DNA from: an uncultured Actinomycetota bacterium
GTDB lineage: Bacteria; Actinomycetota; Actinomycetes; Streptosporangiales; Streptosporangiaceae
Reading direction: 5' to 3'
Assembly (NCBI GenBank): GCA_963808615.1
Contig: CAWEGV010000002.1
Coordinates: 55,386 to 119,385 of the forward strand
DNA: 64,000 nt
Shown here: in pieces, positions 22,061-57,743 of the stretch
How positions within the stretch are numbered: the stretch's first letter is position 1
How the letters are laid out: every line of letters begins with the position of its first letter
Made by a program: the position numbers and the translations under genes
The notes under the pieces: model-generated
The model's input: only the letters and a program-made list of their open reading frames with translations
Told to the model about the DNA's origin: nothing
Database searches by the model: none

Positions 22061-25000
22061 GTGGACGGACGCTGGGAATTCTGGATCGACCGGGGCGGTA
22101 CGTTCACCGACATCGTCGCCCGCCGGCCGGACGGGCGCCTGATCGCGCACAAGCTGCTGTCCGATAACCCCCGGGCCTACCGGGACGCGGCGGTGGCCGG
22201 GATCCGGCAGCTGCTCGGCCTCGGGCCGGACGAAAAGGTCCCCGCCGAGAAGATCGGCTCGGTCAGGCTCGGCACCACGGTGGCCACCAACGCCCTGCTG
22301 GAGCGCGCGGGCGAGCCGACCGTGCTGGTCATCACCGAAGGCTTCGCCGACGCGCTGCGCATCGCCTACCAGAACCGGCCGCGGATCTTCGACCGGCGGA
22401 TCATGCTGCCCGAACTGCTGTACGAGCGGGTCATCGAGGCCCGCGAGCGGGTCGCCGCCCACGGCGAGGTCCTCACCCCGCTGGACGAGGACGCCATCGC
22501 GCAAGCTCTCAAGCAGGCCTACGACGACGGCTTCCGCAGCGTGGCCGTGGTCTGCGTGCACGGGTACCGGTATCCCGCACACGAAGCGCGTATCGGCGAG
22601 ATCGCCCGTGCGGCGGGCTTCACCCAGGTCTCGGAGTCGCACCGGACCAGCCCCGATGAAGCTGGTCTCGCGGGGCGACACCACCGTGGTGGACGCGTAC
22701 CTGTCACCCATCCTGCGGCGGTACGTGACCGAGGTGGCCCGCGAGCTTCAGGGCGTCAAGCTGCTGTTCATGCAGTCCAACGGCGGCCTGACCGACGCGG
22801 CCAGCTTCCGCGGCAAGGACTCCATCTTGTCCGGCCCGGCCGGCGGCATTGTCGGCATGGCCCGTACCGCCGCCCAGGCCCTGGTTCTTCCAGGGTCATC
22901 GGGTTCGACATGGGCGGCACGTCCACCGACGTGTCGCACTTCGCGGGCGCGTTCGAGCGCGAGTACGAAACCCAGGTCGCCGGGGTGCGGATGCGGGCGC
23001 CGATGCTGTCCATCCATACCGTGGCCGCGGGCGGCGGCTCGGTGCTGCATTTCGACGGCAGCCGGTACCGGGCCGGGTCCTACTTGGCCCGCGCCGACCC
23101 CGGCCCGGCCTGCTACCGGCGCGGCGGCCCGCTCACCGTCACCGACGCCAACGTGCTGCTCGGGCGGATCCAGCCCGGCTACTTCCCGCGCGTGTTCGGC
23201 GAGCACTCCGACGCCCCGCTCGACGCCGGAGTCACCGAGGCGAAGTTCACCGAGCTGAGCGAGCAGATCACCGCCGCCACCGGCGACCGCCGCGGCCCGG
23301 ATCAGGTCGCGGCGGGCTTCATCGAGATCGCCGTGGCCAACATGGCCAACGCGATCAAGAAGATCTCGGTGCAGCGGGGTTACGACGTGACCGAGTACGT
23401 GCTCAACGTATTCGGTGGCGCCGGAGGCCAGCATGCCTGTGCCGTCGCGGACGCCCTGGGCATGTCGAAGGTGCTCATCCACCCCCTGGCCGGGGTGCTG
23501 TCCGCCTACGGCATCGGGCTGGCCGACATCGTCGCCATGCGCGAGCAGGCCGTCGAGGCGGCGCTCACCGACGACCTGGTGGCCAGGCTGCCCGCCATCA
23601 CAGGACCGCTCGAGGCCAGCGCCCGCGCCGAGGTGGCCGGCGAGGGGGTGCCCGGCGACCGGATCACCGCCGCGCACCGGGCCCACCTGCGCTACGGGGG
23701 CACCGACACCGCGGTCATCGTCCCGGTCGGCTCGGTAACCGCCATGACCCGGGCGTTCGAGACCGAGTACACCAGGCGCTTCTCGTTCCTGATGCCCGAC
23801 AAGACGATCCTCGTCGAGGCCGTGTCCGTCGAGGTCATGGGCGCCCAGGAGCAGCTGAGCGCGCCCACCACGGACCGTTCGGCCGCACTACAAGATGCCG
23901 AGCCGGAGCGCCGGCCAGCCACGAGAAGGTCCGGATGTTCATCGCCGGGGGATGGGCCGAGGCGAGCCTGTTCCGGCGGGCCGGGCTGCGGCCCGGGCAG
24001 GCCATCGACGGCCCGGCGATCATCGCCGAGGACCTGGCCACCACCGTGGTCGATCCCGGCTGGCAGGCCGTGGTGACCGGTGCCGGCGACCTGCTGCTGT
24101 CCCGCGTCACCGCCCGGCCCGGCCGCGCCGCGGTGGGCACCGCGGCCGACCCGGTGATGCTGGAGATCTTCAACAACCTGTTCATGTCGGTCGCCGAGCA
24201 GATGGGCGTGCGCCTGCAGGCCACCGCGCACTCGGTCAACATCAAGGAGCGGCTCGACTTCTCCTGCGCGCTGTTCGACGCCGAAGGCGGCCTGATCGCC
24301 AACGCCCCGCACATGCCGGTGCACCTGGGCTCGATGGGCGAGTCGATCAAGATGGTGATCCAGCGCAACCCGCACATCCGCCGCGGCGACGTCTTCGTCC
24401 TCAACGACCCGTACCACGGCGGCACTCACCTCCCGGACATCACAGTCGTCACCCCCGTGTTCGCTCCCCGCCGCGAACAGACCGCAACGATGTCACAACG
24501 ACGCGGCTATAACCGCCTCGATGTCACATCGTGCCGCCCAGACCCCGATCCCGGGAACGAAGAGCCCTGGTTCTACGTCGCCTCCCGCGGGCACCACGCC
24601 GAAATCGGCGGTATCTCGCCCGGCTCGATGCCCGCCGCCAGCGCCCGCGTCGAGGAGGAGGGGGTGCTGATCGACAACTGGCTGCTGGTCCAGGACGCCA
24701 GGCTCCGGGAGGCCGAGACGACCGCCCTCCTGCAAACCGCCGAGTACCCGTCCCGCGACCCGGCCACCAACCTGGCCGACCTGCGGGCCCAGATCGCCGC
24801 GAACGAGCGCGGTATCGCCGAACTGCACAAGATGGTGGACCACTTCGGCCTGGACGTGGTCCGCGCCTACATGGGCCACGTGCAAGAAAACGCCGCGGAG
24901 TCCGTGCGCAGGGTCATCACCGCGCTGCACGACGGCGAGTACGAATACGAGCTCGACAACCAGGCCCGGATCAAGGTCGCCGTCCGCGTCAGCGCCGCAC

Positions 25001-27753: not shown

Positions 27754-29895
27754 GTGCCCGCTGTGAGCACGGACACTTCGGTGCCCAGGCCTCGGGACGC
27801 ATCCGACGCCGCTCTGGTGGACATGCTCATGCTGGAGGCGCCGGTAGGCCTCGCGCTCTTCGGGCCCGACCTGCGCTTCCGCTGGGTGAATGCTGCCCTG
27901 GCCCGGCTCGAGGGAACGGACCCGGCCCGATACGCCGGCCGGCTGCCGTCCGAGGTGTGGCCGGAGGAGCTCGCGACCCGCGCCGAGGCCGCGCTGCGCA
28001 AGGTCCTGGCCGACGGCGCGCCGGTGCTTGCCAGGGGGGAATGGGGGGGCGGGCAGCCCCCCCATGATCGGGGGGATTCCCAAGGGGGGTCCGGGGGGAT
28101 GGGTCCCCCCGCTAGAAATCAGTCGTCCCCCCGGGGATACACCGCATCCTGGTTCCCCGTGCACGACGCGGCCGGGGAGATCGGCGGCGCCGGGCTCATG
28201 CTGCTCGAACTCGGCGGGCACCCGGCCGAGGAGGAGATCAGGCGCAGCGAGGAGCGTTACCGCTCGCTGGTCCAGGGCGCCGCCCAGGTGGTCTGGGTGG
28301 CGGCCCCCGACGGCGCCATGAAGGAAGACTCGCCGGAGTGGCGGTGGATCACCGGGCAGTCGACCGAGGACTACTTGGGCCACGGCTGGCTGGCCGCCGT
28401 GCACCCCGATGACCGGGAACGGGTCGAGCGCGACTGGCGCGAGTGCGTCCGGACCGGCAAGGTGTTCGACGACCGGTACCGGATCCGGACCAAGAACGGC
28501 TCGTACCGGCACTACGACGTGCGGGCGGTCCCGATCGAGCGGGACGGCAAGATCGTCGAATGGGTCGGGGCCACCAGCGACGTCACCAGCCAGCGTGAGG
28601 CCGAGGAGATGCGCGGGCGGCTGACCGAGCAGCTGTCCGCGGCCGCGCTGCGCACCGCGCGGCTGCAGCAGGCCACCTCGATGCTGGCCGAGGCGCTCAT
28701 CGTGGAGCAGGTGGTCGAGGTCATCACCGAGGTGGGCCGGACCGCGATCGGCGCGCTGCGGTCGGCGGTCGCTCTGCTCGAACCGGACGGTGCGCGGCTG
28801 CGGGTGGTCAACGAGGACGGATTGCCGACCTCACCGGACTCGGCGGCCGGCCCGCTGACCCTGCAGTCTCCCAGCGTGATGACCAGGGCCATCGCGACTC
28901 GGCAGCCGGTGCTCATCGAGGACCCGGAGGACCTGCGCAGGCAGTTCGCGGGTGAGCTCGACATCTACCCGGCCAACGTGGTGGCGACGTCTGATGAGCG
29001 CTCCTGGGTCGGCCTGCCGCTGATCACGGCGGGCGCGCCGCTGGGCGCGCTGCGGTTCTCGTTCGGCCGGGCCAGGAAGATCACCGAGGAGGAGCGGGTC
29101 TTCCTCGAGGCGCTGGCCGGCCAGTGCGCGCTGGCGGTCGAGCGAGCGGGGCTGTATGAACGGGAGCACACCACCGCCGAGACGCTGCAGCGCAGCCTGC
29201 TTCCCGACCGGCTGCCCAGCGTCCCCGGCCTGGTCCTGACGGCCAGGTACCGCCCGGTCGGGCGGAACATGGAGATTGGCGGCGACTGGTACGACGGGTT
29301 CCGGCTGGCCGACCAGCGGCTGGCGCTCGCGGTCGGCGACGTCATGGGCAAGGGGCTGACCGCCGCGGCCGGCATGGGCCGGGTCCGCAACGCGCTGCGC
29401 GCGCTGGCCCTGACCGACCCGCGCCCGGCCGCCGTCCTGGGCGGCCTGGACCGGCTGTTCAGCGCCACCGAGGAGGAAGAGCAGGTCACCACCGTCGCCT
29501 ACCTGGTGATCGACCCCGCCACCGGCGAGGGCATGCTCGGCAACGCCGGCCACCTGCCCGCCCTGGTGCTCGAGGCGGGCACCGCGCCGCGGTTCGACCA
29601 GGTGGAGGCGGGCACCCCGCTCGGCTGGGCCAGCCCGCGCAAGCAGCACGTGTTCAGCCTGCAGCCGGGCAGCACCGCGGTGTTCTACTCCGACGGGCTG
29701 GTCGAGACCAGGAACCGTGGCCTGGACGCCGGCCTGGATGACCTGGCCGCGGTGGCCGCCCGTGCCGACGCGGATCTGCTCGGCCAGCCTGAACGCCTGC
29801 TCGAATACCTCGTAGACCGCATGCTCGCAGGTCACGAGCAAGACGATGACGTCACCGTACTGGTCATTCACCGGCCTGCCGGGGGTGCGCAGTGA
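27754..29895 (+). CDS. PAS/PAS/GAF sensor fused to a SpoIIE/PP2C-family protein phosphatase
   Basis: PAS region: WITGQSTEDYLGHGWLAAVHPDDRERV..YRIRTKNGSYRHYDVRAVPIERDGKIVEWVG. PP2C region: LQRSLLPDRLP...GGDWYDGF...AVGDVMGKG...YSDGLVE. The start is uncertain (GTG 27754 or 27763). Confidence 0.9.
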   Translation: MPAVSTDTSVPRPRDASDAALVDMLMLEAPVGLALFGPDLRFRWVNAALARLEGTDPARYAGRLPSEVWPEELATRAEAALRKVLADGAPVLARGEWGGGQPPHDRGDSQGGSGGMGPPARNQSSPRGYTASWFPVHDAAGEIGGAGLMLLELGGHPAEEEIRRSEERYRSLVQGAAQVVWVAAPDGAMKEDSPEWRWITGQSTEDYLGHGWLAAVHPDDRERVERDWRECVRTGKVFDDRYRIRTKNGSYRHYDVRAVPIERDGKIVEWVGATSDVTSQREAEEMRGRLTEQLSAAALRTARLQQATSMLAEALIVEQVVEVITEVGRTAIGALRSAVALLEPDGARLRVVNEDGLPTSPDSAAGPLTLQSPSVMTRAIATRQPVLIEDPEDLRRQFAGELDIYPANVVATSDERSWVGLPLITAGAPLGALRFSFGRARKITEEERVFLEALAGQCALAVERAGLYEREHTTAETLQRSLLPDRLPSVPGLVLTARYRPVGRNMEIGGDWYDGFRLADQRLALAVGDVMGKGLTAAAGMGRVRNALRALALTDPRPAAVLGGLDRLFSATEEEEQVTTVAYLVIDPATGEGMLGNAGHLPALVLEAGTAPRFDQVEAGTPLGWASPRKQHVFSLQPGSTAVFYSDGLVETRNRGLDAGLDDLAAVAARADADLLGQPERLLEYLVDRMLAGHEQDDDVTVLVIHRPAGGAQ
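28034..28136. repeat. G/C-homopolymer hairpin element, copy A (inside the phosphatase CDS)
   Basis: Runs: G6, G7, C7, G6, G6, G6, C6, C6. Hairpin at 28041-28065: ATGGGGGGGC-gggca-GCCCCCCCAT. Second hairpin at 28093-28110. The core is shared with 54637..54712. Confidence 0.65.
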
Positions 29896-51844: not shown

Positions 51845-52612
51845 ATGGGGAGCGGGTCTGCGGAAATCAGGCGGATGCCGGCCGACCAGCCTGGATCATC
51901 CGCGACCATGGAGATCCCTGCCGGTCATCCTGGTCCTGGTCCTCGCCCCGCCTCCACCCTCGTGGTCCTGGACCCTGCCCGCCAGAGGTGCCCGGGATCC
52001 GATACGTTGCCGGTCCTGCCGGCGCTGCGCGGGCTACTGCCGCGGGACGGCCTTGCTCGCGGGTCGGTGGTGACCGTGGCGGAGTTCGGCATACTGGCCC
52101 TGGCCCTGCTGGCCGCCGCCTCGGCCGCCGGGACCTGGTGCGGGATCGCCGGAATACCCGAGGCCGGCGTGCTGGCCACGGTGGGCCTGGGCCTGGACGC
52201 CGAGCGGACCCTGCTGGTTCCCGATCCGGGGGACGCCTGGCCGCAGGTGGTGGCGTCGCTGCTCGACGGGTGCGAACTGGTCTTGCTGCGGCCGCCCGGG
52301 CGGGCCCCGGCCCAGGTCCGGCAGCGTCTTGAGGCGGTACTCCGGCGCGGCCGGGGCGTGCTGCTCGTGGCCGGGAAATGGCCGGGGGCGCAGGTCCGCC
52401 TCCGGGTGGTCATCCAGGGCTGGACCGGACTCGGTGACGGGCACGGTCGGCTCCGGGCATGCTGCGCTGAGGTGGTGTCGGACGGCCGCGGCGAGGCGGC
52501 CATGACGCGCACCAGCTGGCTCTGGCTACCGGGCGAAGACGGCGGCGTCACCCTGGCGGACCCCGCGAATGTCCCCCCGGGGAAATATCTTCCGCCCGGG
52601 CTGGCCCTGTGA
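51845..52612 (+). CDS. imuA: ImuA'-like SOS mutasome accessory protein
   Basis: Position (SOS box, then this gene, then imuB and dnaE2). RecA-fold remnant LLPRDGLARGSVVTV.....GTWCGIAGIPEAGVLA..GLGLDAERTLLVPDPG. Confidence 0.7.
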   Translation: MGSGSAEIRRMPADQPGSSATMEIPAGHPGPGPRPASTLVVLDPARQRCPGSDTLPVLPALRGLLPRDGLARGSVVTVAEFGILALALLAAASAAGTWCGIAGIPEAGVLATVGLGLDAERTLLVPDPGDAWPQVVASLLDGCELVLLRPPGRAPAQVRQRLEAVLRRGRGVLLVAGKWPGAQVRLRVVIQGWTGLGDGHGRLRACCAEVVSDGRGEAAMTRTSWLWLPGEDGGVTLADPANVPPGKYLPPGLAL

Positions 52613-54129
52613 GGGCACGCCAGCCTGGTGCCCTGATACCGGAAACCCCGCGGATCATGGTCCTGTGCTGCCCGGGGCTGTGCGATTCCGGCGCCCCAAG
52701 CCGTCCCGGCGCCCCAAGCTGTCCCGGCGCCCCAAGCCCGCTGGCCGCGCCCGGGCCGCACGCCGCGAAACTGTTCGAGCAGGTGATCGCGGCGGTGACC
52801 GAGTTCTGCCCCAGGGTGGAGGCGGTGGAGCCCGGCGTGTGCGCGTTCGGCGCCCGCGGGCCCGCGCGTTACTTCGGCGGCGAGATGGCTTTGGCTGGCC
52901 GGATCATCGCCGCGGTGGCGGAACTCGGCGTGGAGTCCCGGGTCGGGGCGGCCGATGGCCTGTTCGCCGCGCTGCTGGCCGCCCGCGGCATCGATCCACC
53001 CCATACCGGTCCGCCCCATGCCGGCTCGCCCCACGCCCGCCGGAGCCCGGTCTTCGTGATACCCCCTGGCCATACGGCGGAGTTCCTGGCGCGGCAACCG
53101 GTGAGCGTCCTGGAAGACCAGGACCTAGCCGGGCTGCTGACCCGGCTCGGCCTGCGTACCTTGGGGGATCTGGCCGCCTTGCCCGCCGGTGACGTGGCCG
53201 GCCGGTTCGGCTCCGCGGGGGAGACCGCGCACCGGCTGGCCAGCGGCCAGGGCTCACGGCCGCTGGCGGCTGCGCCGCCCGCCGAGGACCTGTCCGCGGT
53301 CCGGGAGTTCGACCCGCCGGAGCCGCTGGCCGAGCCGGTGGTGTTCGCGGCCAAGGCGCTCGCCGAGCAGATGCACGACGGCCTGTCGGCCCGCGGGCTG
53401 ACCTGCGTCCGCGTCCAGGTCCAGGCCACCTGGGCGGACGGCCGGGAAAGCCGCAGGCTGTGGCGGCACGACGGGCTGCTGTCCGCGACCGCCCTGGCCG
53501 GCCGGGTCCGCTGGCAGCTCGACGGCTGGCGGGGCGCGGCAGGCGACACGGACACGTCCGGCGGGGGCATCGCGGTGCTCCGGCTGGTGCCGGACCAGGT
53601 GGTCCGCGCCACCGGGCACCAGCTCGCCCTGTGGGGAGAGACCGTGGTCAGCGACCGGGTGGCCCGGGCGGCCATGCGCGTCCAGGCCATGCTCGGGCAC
53701 CAGGCGGTGCTGCGTCCGGTCCCGGGTGGCGGGAGAGATTTCTGCGAGCGGGTCACCCTGGTACCGTTCGGCGAGAAAACAGAGCCCCGCCTGGCCCCGG
53801 GCCCGCCTTGGCCTGGGCGGGTCATGGGTCCGGCGCCTGGCGTGGCGTACCCCTTCGCCCGCGAGGCGGACGTGACCGACGAGGCCGGAGCTCCGGTCAC
53901 CGTGACCGGCCGGTGCATCATGTCAGCCGCGCCAGCCTGGCTGGCGGTCGATGATGACCCGCCGCGGCGGATCACCGGCTGGGCCGGCCCGTGGCCGCTG
54001 TCCGAACGCTGGTGGGATCCGGTCGCCGCGCGGCGGCGGGCCAGGTTCCAGCTCCTGACCGGCGACGGGCGGGCCTGGCTGGCCGCGGTGCAGGACGGCC
54101 GCTGGCTGATCGAGGCCGGCTACTGGTGA
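52609..54129 (+). CDS. imuB: ImuB, Y-family DNA polymerase-like mutasome protein
   Basis: FEQVIAAVTEFCPRVEAVEPGVCAFGARGPARYFGGE...LEDQDLAGLLTRLGLRTLGDLAALP. Start overlaps the imuA' stop. Contains an 18-nt x3 repeat at 52689-52742 (GAPSRP/GAPSCP/GAPSPL). Confidence 0.85.
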   Translation: MRARQPGALIPETPRIMVLCCPGLCDSGAPSRPGAPSCPGAPSPLAAPGPHAAKLFEQVIAAVTEFCPRVEAVEPGVCAFGARGPARYFGGEMALAGRIIAAVAELGVESRVGAADGLFAALLAARGIDPPHTGPPHAGSPHARRSPVFVIPPGHTAEFLARQPVSVLEDQDLAGLLTRLGLRTLGDLAALPAGDVAGRFGSAGETAHRLASGQGSRPLAAAPPAEDLSAVREFDPPEPLAEPVVFAAKALAEQMHDGLSARGLTCVRVQVQATWADGRESRRLWRHDGLLSATALAGRVRWQLDGWRGAAGDTDTSGGGIAVLRLVPDQVVRATGHQLALWGETVVSDRVARAAMRVQAMLGHQAVLRPVPGGGRDFCERVTLVPFGEKTEPRLAPGPPWPGRVMGPAPGVAYPFAREADVTDEAGAPVTVTGRCIMSAAPAWLAVDDDPPRRITGWAGPWPLSERWWDPVAARRRARFQLLTGDGRAWLAAVQDGRWLIEAGYW

Positions 54130-54155: not shown

Positions 54156-54206
54156 CACGTCGTTGTGACAACCACGTGGTCTGGTGCACGTCGTTGTGAC
54201 AACGAC
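54156..54206. promoter_or_regulatory. Two 17-nt direct repeats, each a TGTGACA-centred palindrome, 31 bp apart, upstream of dnaE2
   Basis: CACGTCGTTGTGACAAC at 54156 and 54187. The second extends to the perfect 19-nt palindrome CGTCGTTGT-G-ACAACGACG. Confidence 0.55.
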
Positions 54207-54228
54207 GTCGTTGGATCCGGGGCCAGAG

Positions 54229-57200
54229 GTGGGCTGGGATAACGCGCCGGTCCCGTGGGCCGAGCTCCGGCGCCGCATGTCCTGGCGTGCCGAAGGTCAG
54301 CCGCCCCAGGCCGGGTCCGCTGACCCCGAGGCGCCTCACCATGCCGGGCCCGCCGGTCCCGAGACGGCGACGCCCGTCCCGAGCGAGCCGGTCAGGCGGC
54401 CGGAAGCCGGCCGTGTCCCCTGGGCCGAACTGCACTGCCACTCCGCGTTCAGTTTCCTCGACGGGGCGGCCGCTCCCGGTGAGCTCGTCGCCGAAGCGGC
54501 CCGGCTCGGGCTCGAGACGCTCGCCATCACCGATCACGACGGCATGTACGGGGTTCCGCAGTTCGCCCAGGCCGCCGCCCGGCTCGCCGAGCACGGCGCC
54601 CGGCTCCGCACGGTGTTCGGCGCCGAGCTCAGCCTGCCCCCCGGGTCAGGGGGGTACGGGGGGGCGGGCAGCCCCCCCGTGCGCGGGGGGTCCAGGGGGG
54701 TCGTCCCCCCGGACCAGTCCAGCCACCTGCTGATCCTGGCCCGCGACCCGGAGGGGTACCGCAGGCTGTGCTCTGTGATCAGCGCGGCCCAGCTGGCCGG
54801 CGGGGAAAAGGGACGGCCGGTCTACGACACCGGAGCGCTGGCTAGCGCGCACGACGGCCACTGGGTGGTGCTGACCGGCTGCCGCAAGGGGCAGGTTCCC
54901 GTCGCGCTCGCCGCCGGCGGCCCGGACCCGAAGACCGCGGCCTGGCGGGAGCTGGCCGAGCTGACCGCGATGTTCGGGCACGAGAACGTGATGGTCGAGC
55001 TGAACTGCCGTCACGATCCCGGCGATGACGAACGGAACGACGCGCTGGCCCGGCTCGCGGCGGCCGCGGACGTCGACGTGATCGCGACCGGCAACGTGCA
55101 CTACGCGGTCCCCGGCCAGGCCCGGCTCGGCCAGGCGCTGGCCGCGATCCGGGCCCGGCGGTCCCTGGCGGACCAGGACGGCTGGCTGGACCCGGCGGGC
55201 ACGGCTTACCTGCGCTCAGGCGCGGAGATGGCCGCGCTGCTGCGGCGCTACCCGGGCGTGCTTGAGCGGACCGTCGCGCTGGGACGCGAGTGCGCGTTCG
55301 ATTTCCGCGTGATCGCGCCGAGCCTTCCCGACTTCGGCGTCCCGGCCGGCCACACGGAGGCGTCCTGGCTGCGTGAACTGGTCGCGCGGAAGGCCCCGGC
55401 CCGGTACGGGGCGCCCGGCCGCGAGCGGGTGCCCGGCGCGCATGCGCAGATCGCCAGGGAACTCGACGTCATCGAGCGGCTGAAGTTCCCCGGCTACTTC
55501 CTGATCGTGCACAACATCGTCGAGTTCTGCGAGCACGAAAACATCCTGTGCCAGGGCCGGGGATCGGCGGCCAACTCGGCGGTGTGCTACGCGCTCGGCA
55601 TCACCAACGTCAACCCGGTCTCGCACCACCTGCTGTTCGAGCGGTTCCTTTCCGAGGGCCGGGACGGCCCGCCCGACATCGACCTGGACATCGAGCACCG
55701 GCGCCGGGAGGAGGTCATCCAGTACGTCTACCGCACCTACGGCCGGGAGCGGGCCGCACAGGTCGCCAACGTGATCACCTACCGGCCGCGGCTGGCGCTG
55801 CGGGACGCGGGCCGCGCGCTCGGCTACACCCCGGCCCAGTCGGACGCCTGGGTCCGGCAGATCGGCCCGGGCGCGGCTGCTGACGGCGAGTCGCTGCCGG
55901 CCGATGACCGCGACCCGGACGCGGTTCCCCCGGCCGCGGCCGACCTGGCCGCTCAGATGCAGCGGCTGCCGCGCCACCTCGGCACCCATTCCGGCGGCAT
56001 GGTGATCTGCGACCGGCCGGTGGGGGAGGTCTGCCCGGTGGAATGGGCACGGATGCCCGGCCGCAGCGTGCTGCAGTGGGACAAAGACGACTGCGCCTAC
56101 GCGGGCCTAGTCAAGTTCGACCTGCTCGGCCTGGGCATGCTGGCCGCCCTGCACGACTGCCTTGACCTGGTGAACAAGCACTACGGAGAGCACTGGTCGA
56201 TGTCTTCCATCCCGCAGGAGGATCCGGCCGTCTACCAGATGCTGGCCGAGGCGGACACGGTGGGAGTGTTCCAGGTGGAATCCCGCGCGCAGATGGCGAC
56301 CCTGCCCCGGCTGCGACCTAAGCAGTTCTACGACCTGGTCATCGAGGTGGCGCTGATCAGGCCGGGACCGATCCAGGGCGGCTCGGTCCACCCGTACCTG
56401 CGCCGGCATGACGGCCATGAGCCCGCCACGATGCCACACGAGTCCATGCGCCCTGCGCTCGGCAAGACACTGGGCGTGCCGCTGTTCCAGGAGCAGATGA
56501 TGCAGCTGGCCATCGACTGCGCGGGATTTGATCCCGCCGAGGCTGACCGGCTGCGCCAGGCGATGAGCGCCAAACGGGCTCCCGAGCGGATCGCCGAACT
56601 CCGCCAGCGGCTGCTGGACGGGATGGCCGAGCGCGGCATCAGCGACGCGGTCGCGGAAGACATCTACGTCAAGATCCTCGCCTTCTCCAATTACGGGTTC
56701 CCCGAATCGCACGCGATCAGCTTCGCGTACCTGGTCTACGCCAGCGCGTGGCTGAAGCAGTACTACCCGGCCGCGTTCACCGCCGCCTTGCTGCGCAACC
56801 AGCCGATGGGGTTCTACGCCCCGCACACCCTGATCAACGACGCGCGGCGGCACGGGGTCGTGGTCCTAGGCGTAGACGTGAACGCCAGCGAGGCCCTGGC
56901 CAGCCTCGAAGGCTTCGCGGGTGCCTGCCCGGCCGGCGTCAAGAGACCGGCCATCCGGCCCGGCCTGTCCGGGGTGCGTAACCTGGGCCTCCAGGCGGCC
57001 GAGCGGGTGGCCGCCGGGCGGCCCTACCGGGACCTGGAGGATTTCGCGGCCCGGACCGCGCTGCCGGCCGCCGCGCTCGAGGCGCTTGCCCTGGCCGGGG
57101 CGTTCGGGTGCTTCGGGCTGAGCAGGCGCGCCGCGCTGTGGGCGGCGGGTGCCGCCGCCACGGTGCGCGAGGGGCAGCTGGCCGGCACTACCACCGGGCT

Positions 57201-57621
57201 CGATCCGGAGAGCCCGGGGGGCAAGGGGTCCGCGCCGCCGCTGCCCGCCATGACGCCGGTCGAGGAGACGTTCGCCGACCTGTGGGCCACCGGGACCTAC
57301 GGCACTCACCCGGTGGCGCACATCCGGGCCTGGCTCGCCGAGCGGCAGGTGCTGACCGCGGCGGCGGTCAGGTCAGCCGCCGCGGATTCCCACGTGACCG
57401 TGGCCGGCCTGGTCACTCACCGGCAGCAGCCCCCGACCGCACGCGGGGTAGTGTTCATCAGCCTGGAGGACGAGACCGGGATGGTGAACGTCATCTGCCC
57501 GCCCCAGGTCTGGGCCCGCCACCGCCGGATGGCCATGGTCGCGCCTGCGCTGCTCATCCAGGGCCGGGTCGAGCGCACCGGCGGACCCCGAGCGCTGACC
57601 AGGCGGCCCCGAGCGCTCTGA
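54229..57621 (+). CDS. dnaE2: Error-prone DNA polymerase DnaE2 (ImuC); 3' end disturbed
   Basis: VGWDNAPVPWAELRRRMS N-terminus (GTG 54229). PHP domain WAELHCHSAFSFLDGA. GRGSAANSAVCYALGITNVNP, FDLLGLGML, RPGPIQGG. The stop at 57621 lies inside a 58-nt duplication. The conserved C-terminus continues in another frame to 57715. Confidence 0.9.
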   Translation: MGWDNAPVPWAELRRRMSWRAEGQPPQAGSADPEAPHHAGPAGPETATPVPSEPVRRPEAGRVPWAELHCHSAFSFLDGAAAPGELVAEAARLGLETLAITDHDGMYGVPQFAQAAARLAEHGARLRTVFGAELSLPPGSGGYGGAGSPPVRGGSRGVVPPDQSSHLLILARDPEGYRRLCSVISAAQLAGGEKGRPVYDTGALASAHDGHWVVLTGCRKGQVPVALAAGGPDPKTAAWRELAELTAMFGHENVMVELNCRHDPGDDERNDALARLAAAADVDVIATGNVHYAVPGQARLGQALAAIRARRSLADQDGWLDPAGTAYLRSGAEMAALLRRYPGVLERTVALGRECAFDFRVIAPSLPDFGVPAGHTEASWLRELVARKAPARYGAPGRERVPGAHAQIARELDVIERLKFPGYFLIVHNIVEFCEHENILCQGRGSAANSAVCYALGITNVNPVSHHLLFERFLSEGRDGPPDIDLDIEHRRREEVIQYVYRTYGRERAAQVANVITYRPRLALRDAGRALGYTPAQSDAWVRQIGPGAAADGESLPADDRDPDAVPPAAADLAAQMQRLPRHLGTHSGGMVICDRPVGEVCPVEWARMPGRSVLQWDKDDCAYAGLVKFDLLGLGMLAALHDCLDLVNKHYGEHWSMSSIPQEDPAVYQMLAEADTVGVFQVESRAQMATLPRLRPKQFYDLVIEVALIRPGPIQGGSVHPYLRRHDGHEPATMPHESMRPALGKTLGVPLFQEQMMQLAIDCAGFDPAEADRLRQAMSAKRAPERIAELRQRLLDGMAERGISDAVAEDIYVKILAFSNYGFPESHAISFAYLVYASAWLKQYYPAAFTAALLRNQPMGFYAPHTLINDARRHGVVVLGVDVNASEALASLEGFAGACPAGVKRPAIRPGLSGVRNLGLQAAERVAAGRPYRDLEDFAARTALPAAALEALALAGAFGCFGLSRRAALWAAGAAATVREGQLAGTTTGLDPESPGGKGSAPPLPAMTPVEETFADLWATGTYGTHPVAHIRAWLAERQVLTAAAVRSAAADSHVTVAGLVTHRQQPPTARGVVFISLEDETGMVNVICPPQVWARHRRMAMVAPALLIQGRVERTGGPRALTRRPRAL
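54637..54712. repeat. G/C-homopolymer hairpin element, copy B (inside the dnaE2 CDS)
   Basis: Runs: C6, G6, G7, C7, G6, G6, C6. Hairpin at 54656-54680: ACGGGGGGGC-gggca-GCCCCCCCGT. Second hairpin at 54695-54710. Confidence 0.65.
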
Positions 57622-57642
57622 GGGCACCGAGCGTACCGGCGG
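57571..57642. repeat. 58-nt duplication-like insert bounded by a 14-nt direct repeat GAGCGYACCGGCGG
   Basis: GAGCGCACCGGCGG at 57571 and GAGCGTACCGGCGG at 57629. Internal 22-nt repeat GGCGG(A)CCCCGAGCGCT at 57580 and 57602. Confidence 0.6.
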
Positions 57643-57743
57643 CGCCGTCAACCTGGTCGCCGCCGCGCTACGCCCGCTCCAGGTCGCCGCCGTGCCCAGC
57701 CGTGACTTCCGCTGACCTCTCTTCCCGGGCCGTCGGCGGCAGG

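What the first reader, a model, noticed from the sequence alone, without database searches (positions are those of the whole stretch)
54637..54712. Second copy of the G/C-run element inside the DnaE2 PHP domain, read in a different frame with a compensatory stem change
Copy B carries the same core hairpin, but its stem is ACGGGGGGGC...GCCCCCCCGT where copy A has ATGGGGGGGC...GCCCCCCCAT. The T-to-C and A-to-G changes preserve pairing. The core is translated in a different frame in each copy (YGGAGSPPV here, WGGGQPPH in copy A). Conservation is therefore at the DNA/RNA level, not the protein level. The linker between AELSL and HLLILARD is 29 aa. By recollection it is roughly half that in M. tuberculosis DnaE2, which would fit an insertion. 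Copy A equals copy B plus an extra internal 30-nt hairpin module.
Basis: partly seen in the sequence, partly recalled or inferred. Interest (0 to 1): 0.7.

Follow-up and report, generated by a model that had tools for sequence, protein, structure and literature searches.

The report
Mobile hairpin repeat inside DnaE2 gene
The G/C-run segment in the error-prone polymerase gene is one copy of a previously undescribed small repeat made of hairpins, which has spread through the genomes of Trebonia-like soil actinomycetes and often sits in frame inside genes, as the Rickettsia palindromic elements do.

Summary
Window 54637-54723 (87 nt, 29 codons) and about 28030-28144 share an exact 21-mer hairpin core, with an AC..GT versus AT..AT stem base, and they are read in different frames.

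It is not a two-copy curiosity. The core occurs in at least 115 loci from about 44 Trebonia/Streptosporangiaceae soil genomes. It forms a mosaic element of G6-8/C6-8 hairpin modules.

- **Stem pairing:** the two base pairs flanking the core covary almost perfectly (AC/GT, AT/AT, TT/AA, CT/AG) with almost no wobble pairs.
- **Orientation:** it is random with respect to transcription, 25 sense to 24 antisense.
- **Position in genes:** about a quarter of copies lie in frame inside genes, and only in frames without stop codons.
- **DnaE2 loop:** 78 of 120 close orthologues have a 15-aa native loop (GLPSAQTGVPDPEGR). About 28 carry element-derived loops. The nearest relative (95.7% nt identity) is empty.
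- **Replacement, not simple insertion:** in the window the element replaced the native 45 nt.
- **Recent mobility:** filled and empty sites differ between close genomes, and one clean insertion has a 6-bp duplication.

The best reading is a selfish, non-autonomous DNA repeat of the MITE/REP type, tolerated in a surface loop of the PHP domain. The enzyme that moves it was not found. It is a new member of a known kind.

The parts
54637..54723 (+). Copy B of the repeat. It is 87 nt (29 codons, PPGSGGYGGAGSPPVRGGSRGVVPPDQSS) and replaces the native 45-nt (15-aa) loop of DnaE2.
   Evidence: Model R1 scores it 80 bits, E = 2.4e-16.
54637..54654 (+). 5' hairpin module, CCCCCC-GGGTCA-GGGGGG.
   Evidence: DNA and RNA folds. 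A C6-loop-G6 module lies upstream of the core in many family copies.
54656..54680 (+). Core hairpin, ACGGGGGGGC-GGGCA-GCCCCCCCGT: a 10-bp stem whose two outer pairs vary across the family.
   Evidence: DNA fold -14.1 kcal/mol, z = -3.95.
54685..54690 (+). G6 run between the two hairpins. It is present in nearly all copies.
   Evidence: Alignment A2.
54691..54713 (+). 3' hairpin module, TCC-A-GGGGGG-TCGT-CCCCCC-GGA, of the 'TCCA spacer' subtype.
54711..54723 (+). Element tail, GGACCAGTCCAGC. The family terminus is GGACCAGCACAG(C). It encodes ..PDQSS.
54184..57621 (+). dnaE2 (error-prone DNA polymerase) ORF. By comparison with orthologues the likely start is GTG at 54229. The PHP domain covers aa 82-274 of the ORF, and the element covers aa 152-180.
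28030..28144 (+). Copy A of the repeat, with an extra internal module. It lies in frame in a hypervariable loop of the first PAS domain.
   Evidence: (65.7 bits).
27754..29895 (+). PAS-GAF-SpoIIE (PP2C phosphatase) gene that holds copy A.

Best explanation
Copy B is one copy of a short (about 40-170 nt), non-coding, mosaic repeat built from hairpins with G6-8/C6-8 stems. The repeat has multiplied in the chromosomes of Treboniaceae-like actinomycetes (order Streptosporangiales).

It behaves as selfish, non-autonomous mobile DNA of the MITE/REP type. Copies are gained, lost, tandemly amplified and remodelled between close relatives. They lie in either orientation and sit between genes as well as inside them.

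Inside genes, the surviving copies are those that keep the reading frame, lack stop codons and fall in permissive loops. There they are translated into Gly/Pro-rich peptide.

In dnaE2 the element occupies the variable loop between two beta-strands of the PHP domain. It has replaced the native 15-aa loop with 29 aa, most likely without destroying the enzyme.

The hairpin stems stay strictly Watson-Crick. I infer that the hairpin, as single-stranded or cruciform DNA, is what the unidentified mobilising or copying machinery needs, or that whole palindromic modules are copied between elements.

Shown here: family membership, covariation, insertion polymorphism and in-frame occupancy. Inferred: the mode of mobilisation, tolerance by the protein and the reason for the pairing constraint.
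For: Distribution:
All but two chance hits are in Trebonia, Streptosporangiaceae or uncultured Actinomycetes MAGs, from about 44 assemblies made with both short and long reads.
- Model R1 finds about 17 further copies with a diverged core in 760 kb, roughly one per 45 kb. The window has 2 in 64 kb.

Stem covariation:
- Pair -1/+1 is Watson-Crick in 110 of 115 copies, against 58 expected. Pair -2/+2 is Watson-Crick in 106 of 115, against 80 expected.
- On alignment A2 the pairs are AU 69, UA 8, CG 6, GU 1 and CG 54, UA 29, AU 1. None of 500 shuffles reaches the observed score.
- Diverged copies keep palindromy with other stems, such as G6AA..TTC6 and TCTG7..C7AGA.

Position and orientation:
- Orientation relative to transcription is 25 sense to 24 antisense.
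- 26 of 102 evaluable copies lie in frame inside genes. They use only two of three frames in each orientation. The unused sense frame carries TGA in the common GTGAGC/ATGAGC variants.

The DnaE2 loop:
- The native loop is 15 aa in 78 of 120 orthologues, and about 28 orthologues have element-derived loops.
- DNA junctions show replacement of the native linker (class I) or a clean 39-nt insertion (class II).
- The window's nearest relative, L116 (95.7% nt identity), is empty. L118 (filled) and L123 (empty) are about 97% identical.

Other filled/empty sites:
- They include a 39-nt insertion with a 6-bp duplication (GTCCAT) and a threefold tandem version of it.
- L017, syntenic with the window, has two copies that the window lacks.

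Copy A: the closest homologue (88% identity) has a 21-aa loop where the window has 42 aa, and no other homologue carries the element peptide.

Loop context:
- The segment is coil with pLDDT below 50 between strands 142-151 and 180-185.
- Mtb DnaE1 (5LEW) has a loop of about 30 aa at the same place.
Against: - No transposase or parent element was found. Recurrent ORF families in about 0.9 Mb of flanks are housekeeping genes. That is a weak test.
- Target-site duplication is seen at only one site. Other junctions show none, or show replacement of 7-45 nt of native sequence. This is unusual for cut-and-paste or copy-and-paste transposition.
- Filled and empty DnaE2 alleles are interleaved across the gene tree. 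Class I alleles share the GGACCAGCACAG tail but differ in their internal modules. Homologous recombination between lineages and ectopic conversion between copies, rather than repeated transposition, may therefore explain much of the pattern.
- The in-frame census rests on a GC3 heuristic, not on gene calls.
- The window's own dnaE2 appears truncated at its 3' end, so tolerance by an active enzyme is not shown for this genome. Intact orthologues such as P0005 and P0010 do carry the same loop.
Confidence: 0.78

Rival explanations
1. The element provides a host-level function through its homopolymer tracts. Runs of six to eight G or C inside coding sequence slip during replication and switch genes such as dnaE2 on and off (phase variation). 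Alternatively, the Gly/Pro-rich loop is itself selected as a linker cassette.
For: - Each copy carries five to seven G/C runs of 6-8 nt inside ORFs.
- Run lengths differ between orthologous copies.
- Most DnaE2 class I alleles keep a tail that encodes ..PPD.., which resembles the conserved native VPDP.
- 18 copies lie between same-strand coding flanks in different frames. These could include frameshifted genes.
Against: - There is no direct evidence of on/off variants at one site.
- The 18 different-frame cases are equally well explained as junctions between neighbouring genes on the same strand, or as homopolymer errors in long-read MAGs.
- Peptides differ by frame and orientation, so no single protein function is conserved.
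- Most copies are not inside genes.
Confidence: 0.1
2. It is a structured cis-acting RNA (terminator, attenuator, mRNA stabiliser or sRNA), and the pairing is conserved for RNA function.
For: - The RNA fold is stable: -70.9 kcal/mol, z = -3.4 for copy B.
- There is covariation in the stem.
- Some copies lie directly after stop codons or before start codons.
Against: - There is no Rfam match at gathering thresholds.
- Orientation relative to transcription is 25 to 24.
- G-U pairs are almost absent among the variable stem cells.
- A quarter of copies are translated, in four different frames.
- Presence or absence differs between near-identical genes.
- Copy A's fold is not better than shuffles, z = -1.1.
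Confidence: 0.05
3. The spread at the DnaE2 loop is not transposition. One ancient loop-replacement allele moves between lineages by homologous recombination through the highly conserved flanks. Its interior is then rewritten by ectopic gene conversion from other genomic copies.
For: - Filled and empty alleles are interleaved in the tree.
- 14 of 20 class I alleles share the rare TCCA-spacer subtype (peptide GGSRGVV), which occurs in only about 4-5 of 115 genome-wide copies.
- All class I alleles examined at DNA level with a recognisable tail share GGACCAGCACAG, while their internal modules differ.
- Class I cannot revert to the native loop without a template.
Against: - The 200-nt flanks of the window's copy are as close to its empty sister (96% and 94.5%) as the rest of the gene, and far from other filled alleles (86-87.5%). 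Any imported tract must therefore be very short.
- Left and right junctions differ between class I alleles.
- This scenario explains one locus. It does not explain the hundreds of dispersed copies, so it complements the main explanation rather than replacing it.
Confidence: 0.35
4. It is an assembly or sequencing artefact of homopolymer-rich sequence.
For: Homopolymer runs are error-prone, especially in nanopore assemblies. Many of the MAGs are long-read assemblies.
Against: - The same architecture appears in about 44 assemblies from independent projects and platforms, including SPAdes, MEGAHIT and long-read assemblies.
- It also appears in JGI, ENA and NCBI contigs that encode DnaE2.
- Both ORFs in the window stay open across the element.
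Confidence: 0.01

Closest known systems
Rickettsia palindromic elements (RPE; Ogata et al. 2000, Science 290:347, as summarised in PMC10969869)
   Same: - Short, palindromic, non-coding repeats in many copies.
- A large share is inserted in frame in unrelated housekeeping genes and translated as extra peptide.
- Orthologues in relatives lack the insert.
- Insertions sit in permissive parts of proteins.
- No clear terminal inverted repeats, duplications or transposase.
   Different: - A different phylum and base composition: about 80% G+C here, AT-rich in Rickettsia.
- No sequence relation.
- Here the element is a mosaic of homopolymer-stem hairpins of variable number.
- It is read in four frames rather than giving one conserved peptide per family.
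- At the DnaE2 and PAS loops it replaces native sequence.
REP / BIME / REPIN elements mobilised by RAYT tyrosine transposases (PMC3116915, PMC3337134)
   Same: - G+C-rich hairpins of 20-40 nt, repeated hundreds of times.
- Mosaic combinations of hairpin units with variable linkers.
- Stem pairing is kept across variants.
- Vertical persistence within a bacterial lineage.
   Different: - REPs are extragenic by definition, whereas about a quarter of copies here are intragenic.
- There is no conserved GTAG-like 5' tetranucleotide.
- No RAYT gene was found in the sequence held (a weak test).
- One site shows a 6-bp duplication, which Y1 transposases do not make.
Bacterial MITEs (Correia, ERIC, BOX, Nezha and others; review PMC10969869)
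   Same: - Small, non-autonomous, high copy number.
- Insertion polymorphism between strains.
- Occasional in-frame intragenic copies.
- Modular BOX-like structure.
- One clean insertion with a target duplication.
   Different: - The terminal inverted repeats are at best 8 bp (CCGGGGGG/CCCCCCGG) and are followed by a non-palindromic tail.
- Duplications are not regular.
- No parent IS is known.

Membership tests
RPE-like in-frame palindromic repeats (functional class, not sequence family) | A short palindromic repeat present in many dispersed copies in one lineage | tested here: met
   At least 115 loci in about 44 assemblies. Hairpins.
RPE-like in-frame palindromic repeats (functional class, not sequence family) | A substantial share of copies lies inside ORFs and keeps the reading frame | tested here: met
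   26 of 102 copies by the GC3 frame test. Peptides are listed. The DnaE2 and PAS genes are confirmed by Pfam.
RPE-like in-frame palindromic repeats (functional class, not sequence family) | Orthologues without the insert exist | tested here: met
   DnaE2: 78 of 120 have the native 15-aa loop. PAS protein. Other filled/empty sites.
RPE-like in-frame palindromic repeats (functional class, not sequence family) | Sequence homology to one of the Rickettsia RPE families | not tested
   RPE sequences were not at hand. The base composition (about 80% G+C) and the host phylum make homology implausible, so this is an analogue, not a member.
REP/REPIN-RAYT system | A G+C-rich imperfect palindrome of 20-40 nt that forms a stem-loop | tested here: met
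   The 25-nt core hairpin folds at -14.1 kcal/mol as DNA. Covariation.
REP/REPIN-RAYT system | Extragenic location | tested here: not met
   About 25% of copies are intragenic, including both copies in the window.
REP/REPIN-RAYT system | A cognate RAYT (Y1 transposase) gene flanked by the repeats | tested here: inconclusive
No recurrent transposase ORF was found. Whole genomes were not searched.
MITE (DDE-transposase-dependent) | Terminal inverted repeats | tested here: inconclusive
   The short form begins CCGGGGGG and has CCCCCCGG near its end, but this is followed by a 10-12-nt tail (GGNCYARCAC).
MITE (DDE-transposase-dependent) | Target-site duplication of fixed length | tested here: inconclusive
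   A 6-bp GTCCAT duplication at L114, and 5-bp units in the L059 tandem. No duplication at DnaE2 class II. Native sequence is replaced at several other sites.
MITE (DDE-transposase-dependent) | A parent IS with the same ends | tested here: inconclusive
   None was seen in the loci held. Whole genomes were not searched.
Curated RNA families (Rfam 15) | A match at the gathering threshold | tested here: not met
   0 matches in the whole window.

The most novel reading that the evidence does not exclude
The element is not just tolerated junk. It is a loop-replacement cassette that repeatedly targets, or is repeatedly recruited to, the same surface loops. At least four different module combinations occupy the one DnaE2 PHP loop in different lineages. 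Its G/C homopolymer tracts make the host genes reversibly frameshift-prone, including the SOS mutasome polymerase DnaE2. That would give Trebonia-like actinomycetes a built-in switch for mutagenesis and other functions.
Probability: 0.1. Interest if true: 0.75.

Novelty: new member of a known kind. Interest (0 to 1): 0.45.

Why it matters
It gives a second, independent and very different example of the 'selfish DNA inside protein-coding genes' phenomenon, which is known mainly from Rickettsia. This one is in a free-living, high-G+C, large-genome soil actinomycete lineage that is abundant in acidic soils and hardly studied.

- **For annotation:** it explains odd Gly/Pro-rich loops and probably many apparent frameshifts in Trebonia/Streptosporangiaceae MAGs.
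- **For evolution:** the DnaE2 loop is a natural series of empty, inserted, replaced and remodelled alleles in about 120 close orthologues. This series allows study of how such elements enter proteins, how their modules turn over, and whether hairpin pairing is kept by selection or by copying of whole palindromes.
- **For mechanism:** the mobilising activity is unknown, so a new repeat-enzyme pair may be waiting to be found in complete genomes.

Tried and rejected
- **Rfam:** a search of the whole window at gathering thresholds found nothing.
- **Further copies in the window:** none.
- **Mobilising gene:**
  - 617 GC3-supported ORFs from 115 loci were clustered. The recurrent families are ABC transporter, Nuo subunits, TrpE, PdxS, EF-G-like and similar, with no transposase.
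- **Viral contigs:** a scan for the core found 0 hits, so there is no sign of a phage vehicle.
- **Recombination tract around the DnaE2 copy:** mismatch density between filled and empty sisters shows no clear imported block.
- **AlphaFold of the whole DnaE2:** the 58-row alignment gave a poor model (mean pLDDT 49.9). I used it only for the local strand-coil-strand pattern and did not take it to a fold search.
- **Literature:** searches on Trebonia repeats, in-frame palindromic elements in Actinobacteria, MITEs in actinomycetes and the core sequence itself found no description of this element.
- **Rejected ideas:**
  - A protein repeat, because of the different frames and strands.
  - A CRISPR or tandem array, because the copies are dispersed singly.
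  - An artefact, because the element appears on many platforms.
Full report
**1. The observation**

The reported segment is there. Window 54637-54723 reads CCCCCC GGGTCA GGGGGG T ACGGGGGGGC GGGCA GCCCCCCCGT GCGC GGGGGG TCCA GGGGGG TCGT CCCCCC GGACCAGTCCAGC.

It lies in the 1145-codon ORF 54184-57621 (+). This ORF is an error-prone DNA polymerase (DnaE2). Pfam places PHP at aa 82-274, followed by DNA_pol3_alpha, the finger domain, HHH_6 and an OB fold. The segment is codons 152-180, so it is inside the PHP domain.

The second copy is at about 28030-28144 (+), inside a PAS-GAF-SpoIIE phosphatase gene, 27754-29895.

- The two copies share the exact 21-mer GGGGGGGCGGGCAGCCCCCCC. It occurs only at these two places in the window, against 0.04 expected by chance.
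- All G6..C6 pattern matches in the window fall inside the two copies.
- The stem base is AC..GT in copy B and AT..AT in copy A.
- The core is read as GGAGSPP in B and GGGQPP in A, so the frames differ.
- As single-stranded DNA, the 87 nt fold into three hairpins on either strand: -34.8 and -34.5 kcal/mol, z = -3.6 and -3.9.

The element-derived stretch ends at 54723, not 54712. Copy A is longer than copy B by 37 nt, not 30.

**2. It is a large repeat family**

I scanned one genome per species of Bacteria and Archaea for the 21-mer.

Apart from two unrelated chance hits (L015, L071), all are in MAGs labelled Trebonia, Streptosporangiaceae or uncultured Actinomycetes. They come from about 44 assemblies of peat, forest and Danish soil projects, made with both short and long reads. 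Trebonia belongs to Treboniaceae, order Streptosporangiales.

Listed on the G-rich strand, the copies show a common architecture:
- an optional 5' hairpin, C6-7 n4 G6;
- CC(A)GGGGGG;
- three variable bases;
- the core hairpin;
- three variable bases plus (A/C)(G/T)C;
- a G6-8 run;
- a spacer (TCT, TTCC, TCCA or TCACC);
- a second hairpin, G6-8 (A)TCG(T/C) C6-7;
- a tail, G(R)GNYARCAC(WG).

Modules are duplicated, deleted or exchanged between copies, so the element is a mosaic.

A covariance model built from 85 copies (R1) finds nothing further in the window. In 760 kb of flanking loci it finds about 17 additional copies whose first hairpin differs but is still a palindrome. Examples are GGGGGGAA-loop-TTCCCCCC, GGGGGG-ATGGGT-CCCCCC and TCTGGGGGGG-CCAG-CCCCCCCAGA. 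That is roughly one copy per 45 kb, which agrees with 2 copies in this 64-kb window.

**3. Pairing is conserved, apparently at the DNA level**

The core was required to match exactly, so only its flanks are free to vary.
- The adjacent pair is Watson-Crick in 110 of 115 copies, against 58 expected if the two sides were independent.
- The next pair is Watson-Crick in 106 of 115, against 80 expected.
- The commonest stem bases are AC/GT (65), AT/AT (25), TT/AA (6) and CT/AG (6).
- On alignment A2 the counts are AU 69, UA 8, CG 6, GU 1, other 1 for one pair, and CG 54, UA 29, AU 1, other 1 for the other.
- None of 500 shuffles reaches the covariation score, and slid-partner controls fall from 94% to 49-73% paired.

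Orthologous copies in different genomes carry different stem bases. L004 and L064 have CT/AG where L022 has AC/GT. L012 has AC/GT where L077 and L089 have CT/AG.

Several results argue against a cis-acting RNA and for a constraint on DNA:
- Wobble pairs are almost absent, although C:G to T:A changes would pass through them.
- The element's orientation relative to the flanking genes is 25 sense to 24 antisense.
- There is no Rfam match.

One caveat applies. Counts are of copies, not events, and modules are evidently swapped between copies (section 5). Part of the covariation may therefore be copying of ready-made palindromes.

**4. Many copies are in frame inside genes**

I used the strong GC3 periodicity of these genomes to call the coding strand and frame on both sides of each copy.
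- 26 of 102 evaluable copies sit inside one continuous ORF: 11 sense and 15 antisense.
- 18 lie between coding flanks on the same strand but in different frames.
- 39 have one coding flank.
- 9 have no coding flank.

The encoded peptides recur by frame:
- GGYGGAGSPPV (6 copies) and WGGGQPP (5 copies) in the sense orientation;
- HGGAARPP(I/V)PP (12 copies) and GGLPAPPYPP (3 copies) in the antisense orientation.

The third frame is unused in each orientation. In the third sense frame the common GTGAGC/ATGAGC variants give TGA. This is what a filter against frameshifts and stop codons would leave behind. The hosts are ordinary genes, including TrpE-like, Nuo subunits, a methyltransferase and kinases.

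**5. The DnaE2 loop**

Among 120 orthologues (77-91% identical), the stretch between AELSL and HLL(I/V)LA is 15 aa in 78 of them. Its consensus is GLPSAQTGVPDPEGR. It is 9-18 aa in 92 of them.

About 28 orthologues carry element-derived loops. DNA from ten of these loci shows two kinds.
- **Class II** (P0004, P0035, P0021, P0043, P0062, P0119, P0052) has a clean insertion between CTG (Leu) and GGC (Gly). In its shortest form it is 39 nt, CCGGGGGGGCTTGGGGGGGTCGTCCCCCCGGGCCAGCAC. The native linker is kept.
- **Class I** (the window, P0005/6, P0010, P0011, P0080, P0090, P0120 and others) has the element in place of the native 45 nt. Sometimes GLP is kept at the left or R at the right.

In a neighbour-joining tree made without the loop, filled and empty alleles are interleaved. 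At least a dozen filled alleles are sisters of empty ones.
- The window (class I) is sister to P0001 (empty). They are 95.7% identical over 2.6 kb.
- P0004 (class II) and P0003 (empty) are about 97% identical.

Class I cannot revert to the native loop without a template. The pattern therefore needs either repeated gains or transfer of alleles by homologous recombination through the very conserved flanks.

In favour of common descent plus recombination:
- 14 of 20 class I alleles share the rare TCCA-spacer subtype.
- The class I alleles with a recognisable tail share GGACCAGCACAG.

In favour of turnover or independent events:
- L124 (P0080) has an ATGGGT-type first hairpin and a TTCC spacer.
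- L125 (P0120) has a TTT spacer and an ATCGT loop.
- L121 lacks the first hairpin.
- The junctions differ between alleles.

No imported tract is visible in the 200-nt flanks of the window's copy. I conclude that the loop has been occupied more than once, at least as class I and class II. I also conclude that resident copies are remodelled by exchange with other copies. How the alleles spread between lineages is open.

**6. Other evidence of recent mobility**

I compared the flanks of every detected copy with the other loci. This gave many filled/empty pairs.
- The cleanest pair is L114 against L052 and L042. A 39-nt short form is flanked by a duplicated GTCCAT, exactly at a TGATG stop/start overlap.
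- L059 has three tandem 45-nt units at the same place.
- L029:4738 against L067 shows a 54-nt gain with a 3-bp repeat.
- Elsewhere 7 nt (L029:7120, L051) or more of native sequence is replaced.
- L017, syntenic with window 20-25 kb at about 85% identity, has two copies that the window lacks.

**7. Copy A**

The closest homologue of the PAS protein (P0121, 88% identity) has ASVLEHGYPTADPASGAATGT where the window has APVLARGEWGGGQPPHDRGDSQGGSGGMGPPARNQSSPRGYT.

This loop varies from 10 to 71 aa among homologues, and none of the others carries the element peptide. Copy A is thus a lineage-specific insertion or replacement in a hypervariable loop.

**8. Structural context**

The AlphaFold model of the window's DnaE2 is poor overall (mean pLDDT 49.9). 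It does place residues 153-179 as coil with pLDDT below 50, between beta-strands 142-151 and 180-185.

In the alignment to M. tuberculosis DnaE1 (5LEW), the same position holds a loop of about 30 aa. A long loop is therefore compatible with the PHP fold. Tolerance by DnaE2 is inferred, not shown.

**9. What it is, and how it compares with known systems**

The best explanation is a selfish, non-autonomous, hairpin-based mobile repeat that is tolerated in frame in permissive loops.

- **Rickettsia palindromic elements** are the closest in behaviour (Ogata et al. 2000, as reviewed in PMC10969869). This element is not related to them in sequence, host or composition.
- **REP/BIME/REPIN elements** (PMC3116915) are the closest in architecture: G+C-rich hairpins combined as mosaics. 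It fails their extragenic criterion, and no RAYT was found.
- **Classical MITE criteria** are only partly met: short imperfect terminal repeats, one target duplication and no parent IS.

I found no description of this element in the searchable literature. It is therefore a new member of a known kind. The mobilising activity, and the reason why native loop sequence is replaced, remain unknown.

**10. Limits**

- The genome scan was truncated and was ascertained on an exact core.
- The census of coding context is heuristic.
- Homopolymer lengths in long-read MAGs may contain errors.
- No reads, transcripts or proteins were available.
- The transposase search was shallow.

Noticed in passing
window 57585-57714: Compared with the closest orthologue (L116/P0001), the window's dnaE2 has 22 extra nt (ACCCCGAGCGCTGACCAGGCGG) inside a variable PER..GG repeat near the 3' end. 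The frame shifts and the ORF stops at 57621. The nearly invariant C-terminus, GGAVNLVA..PSRDFR, is left readable only in another frame, up to about 57714. This is either a real truncation or pseudogenisation, or an assembly error.
   Followed up: partly
L059:3073-3188, L114:6980-7005 (empty in L052 and L042): A 39-40-nt short form of the element sits exactly at a TGATG stop/start overlap of two co-transcribed genes (cysD/cysN-like). It occurs once in L114 with a 6-bp GTCCAT duplication, and three times in tandem in L059.
   Followed up: partly
L079:4844-4911 and L005:5285-5394 (empty in L029): The element's tail, ..CCCCCCGAAGGAGCAGAGCC, lies directly before the ATG of a gene that begins MKIGI.CPYSWD. 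This puts a GGAG Shine-Dalgarno-like motif where the empty site has GGGGCGGGTC. It may be a case of an element supplying a translation signal.
   Followed up: no
window about 21990 and 23883-23936, against L017:3496-3524 and L017:1494-1575: L017 (MAG MFD05502.bin.2.70) is syntenic with window 20.1-25.4 kb at about 84-85% identity. It carries two element copies at sites that are empty in the window.
   Followed up: partly
window 51845-54129: The two ORFs upstream of dnaE2 (255 and 506 aa) have no Pfam hit here. In the syntenic locus L116, the first of the corresponding genes is recorded with PF27531 (MT3502_N). The arrangement looks like an imuA'-imuB-dnaE2 mutasome operon.
   Followed up: no
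L122:387-590 (P0043); also P0062 and P0119: Class II DnaE2 alleles have grown internally to 54-67 aa. The growth comes from a different short tandem unit (GCAGGCGGCCAGGCCAGCCCC, giving AAGGQASP repeats) between the element's two ends. The inserted element has thus become a nucleus for further expansion.
   Followed up: no
L014:1205-1440, L007:2399-2556, L033:4595-4720, L042:1984-2141: Single modules are amplified in tandem inside elements. Examples are the core hairpin (GGAGGGGCGGGCAGCCCCTCC) three or more times in L014, the tail (GGCCAACAC) four times in L033, and the 3' hairpin plus tail three times in L042 and L007.
   Followed up: no
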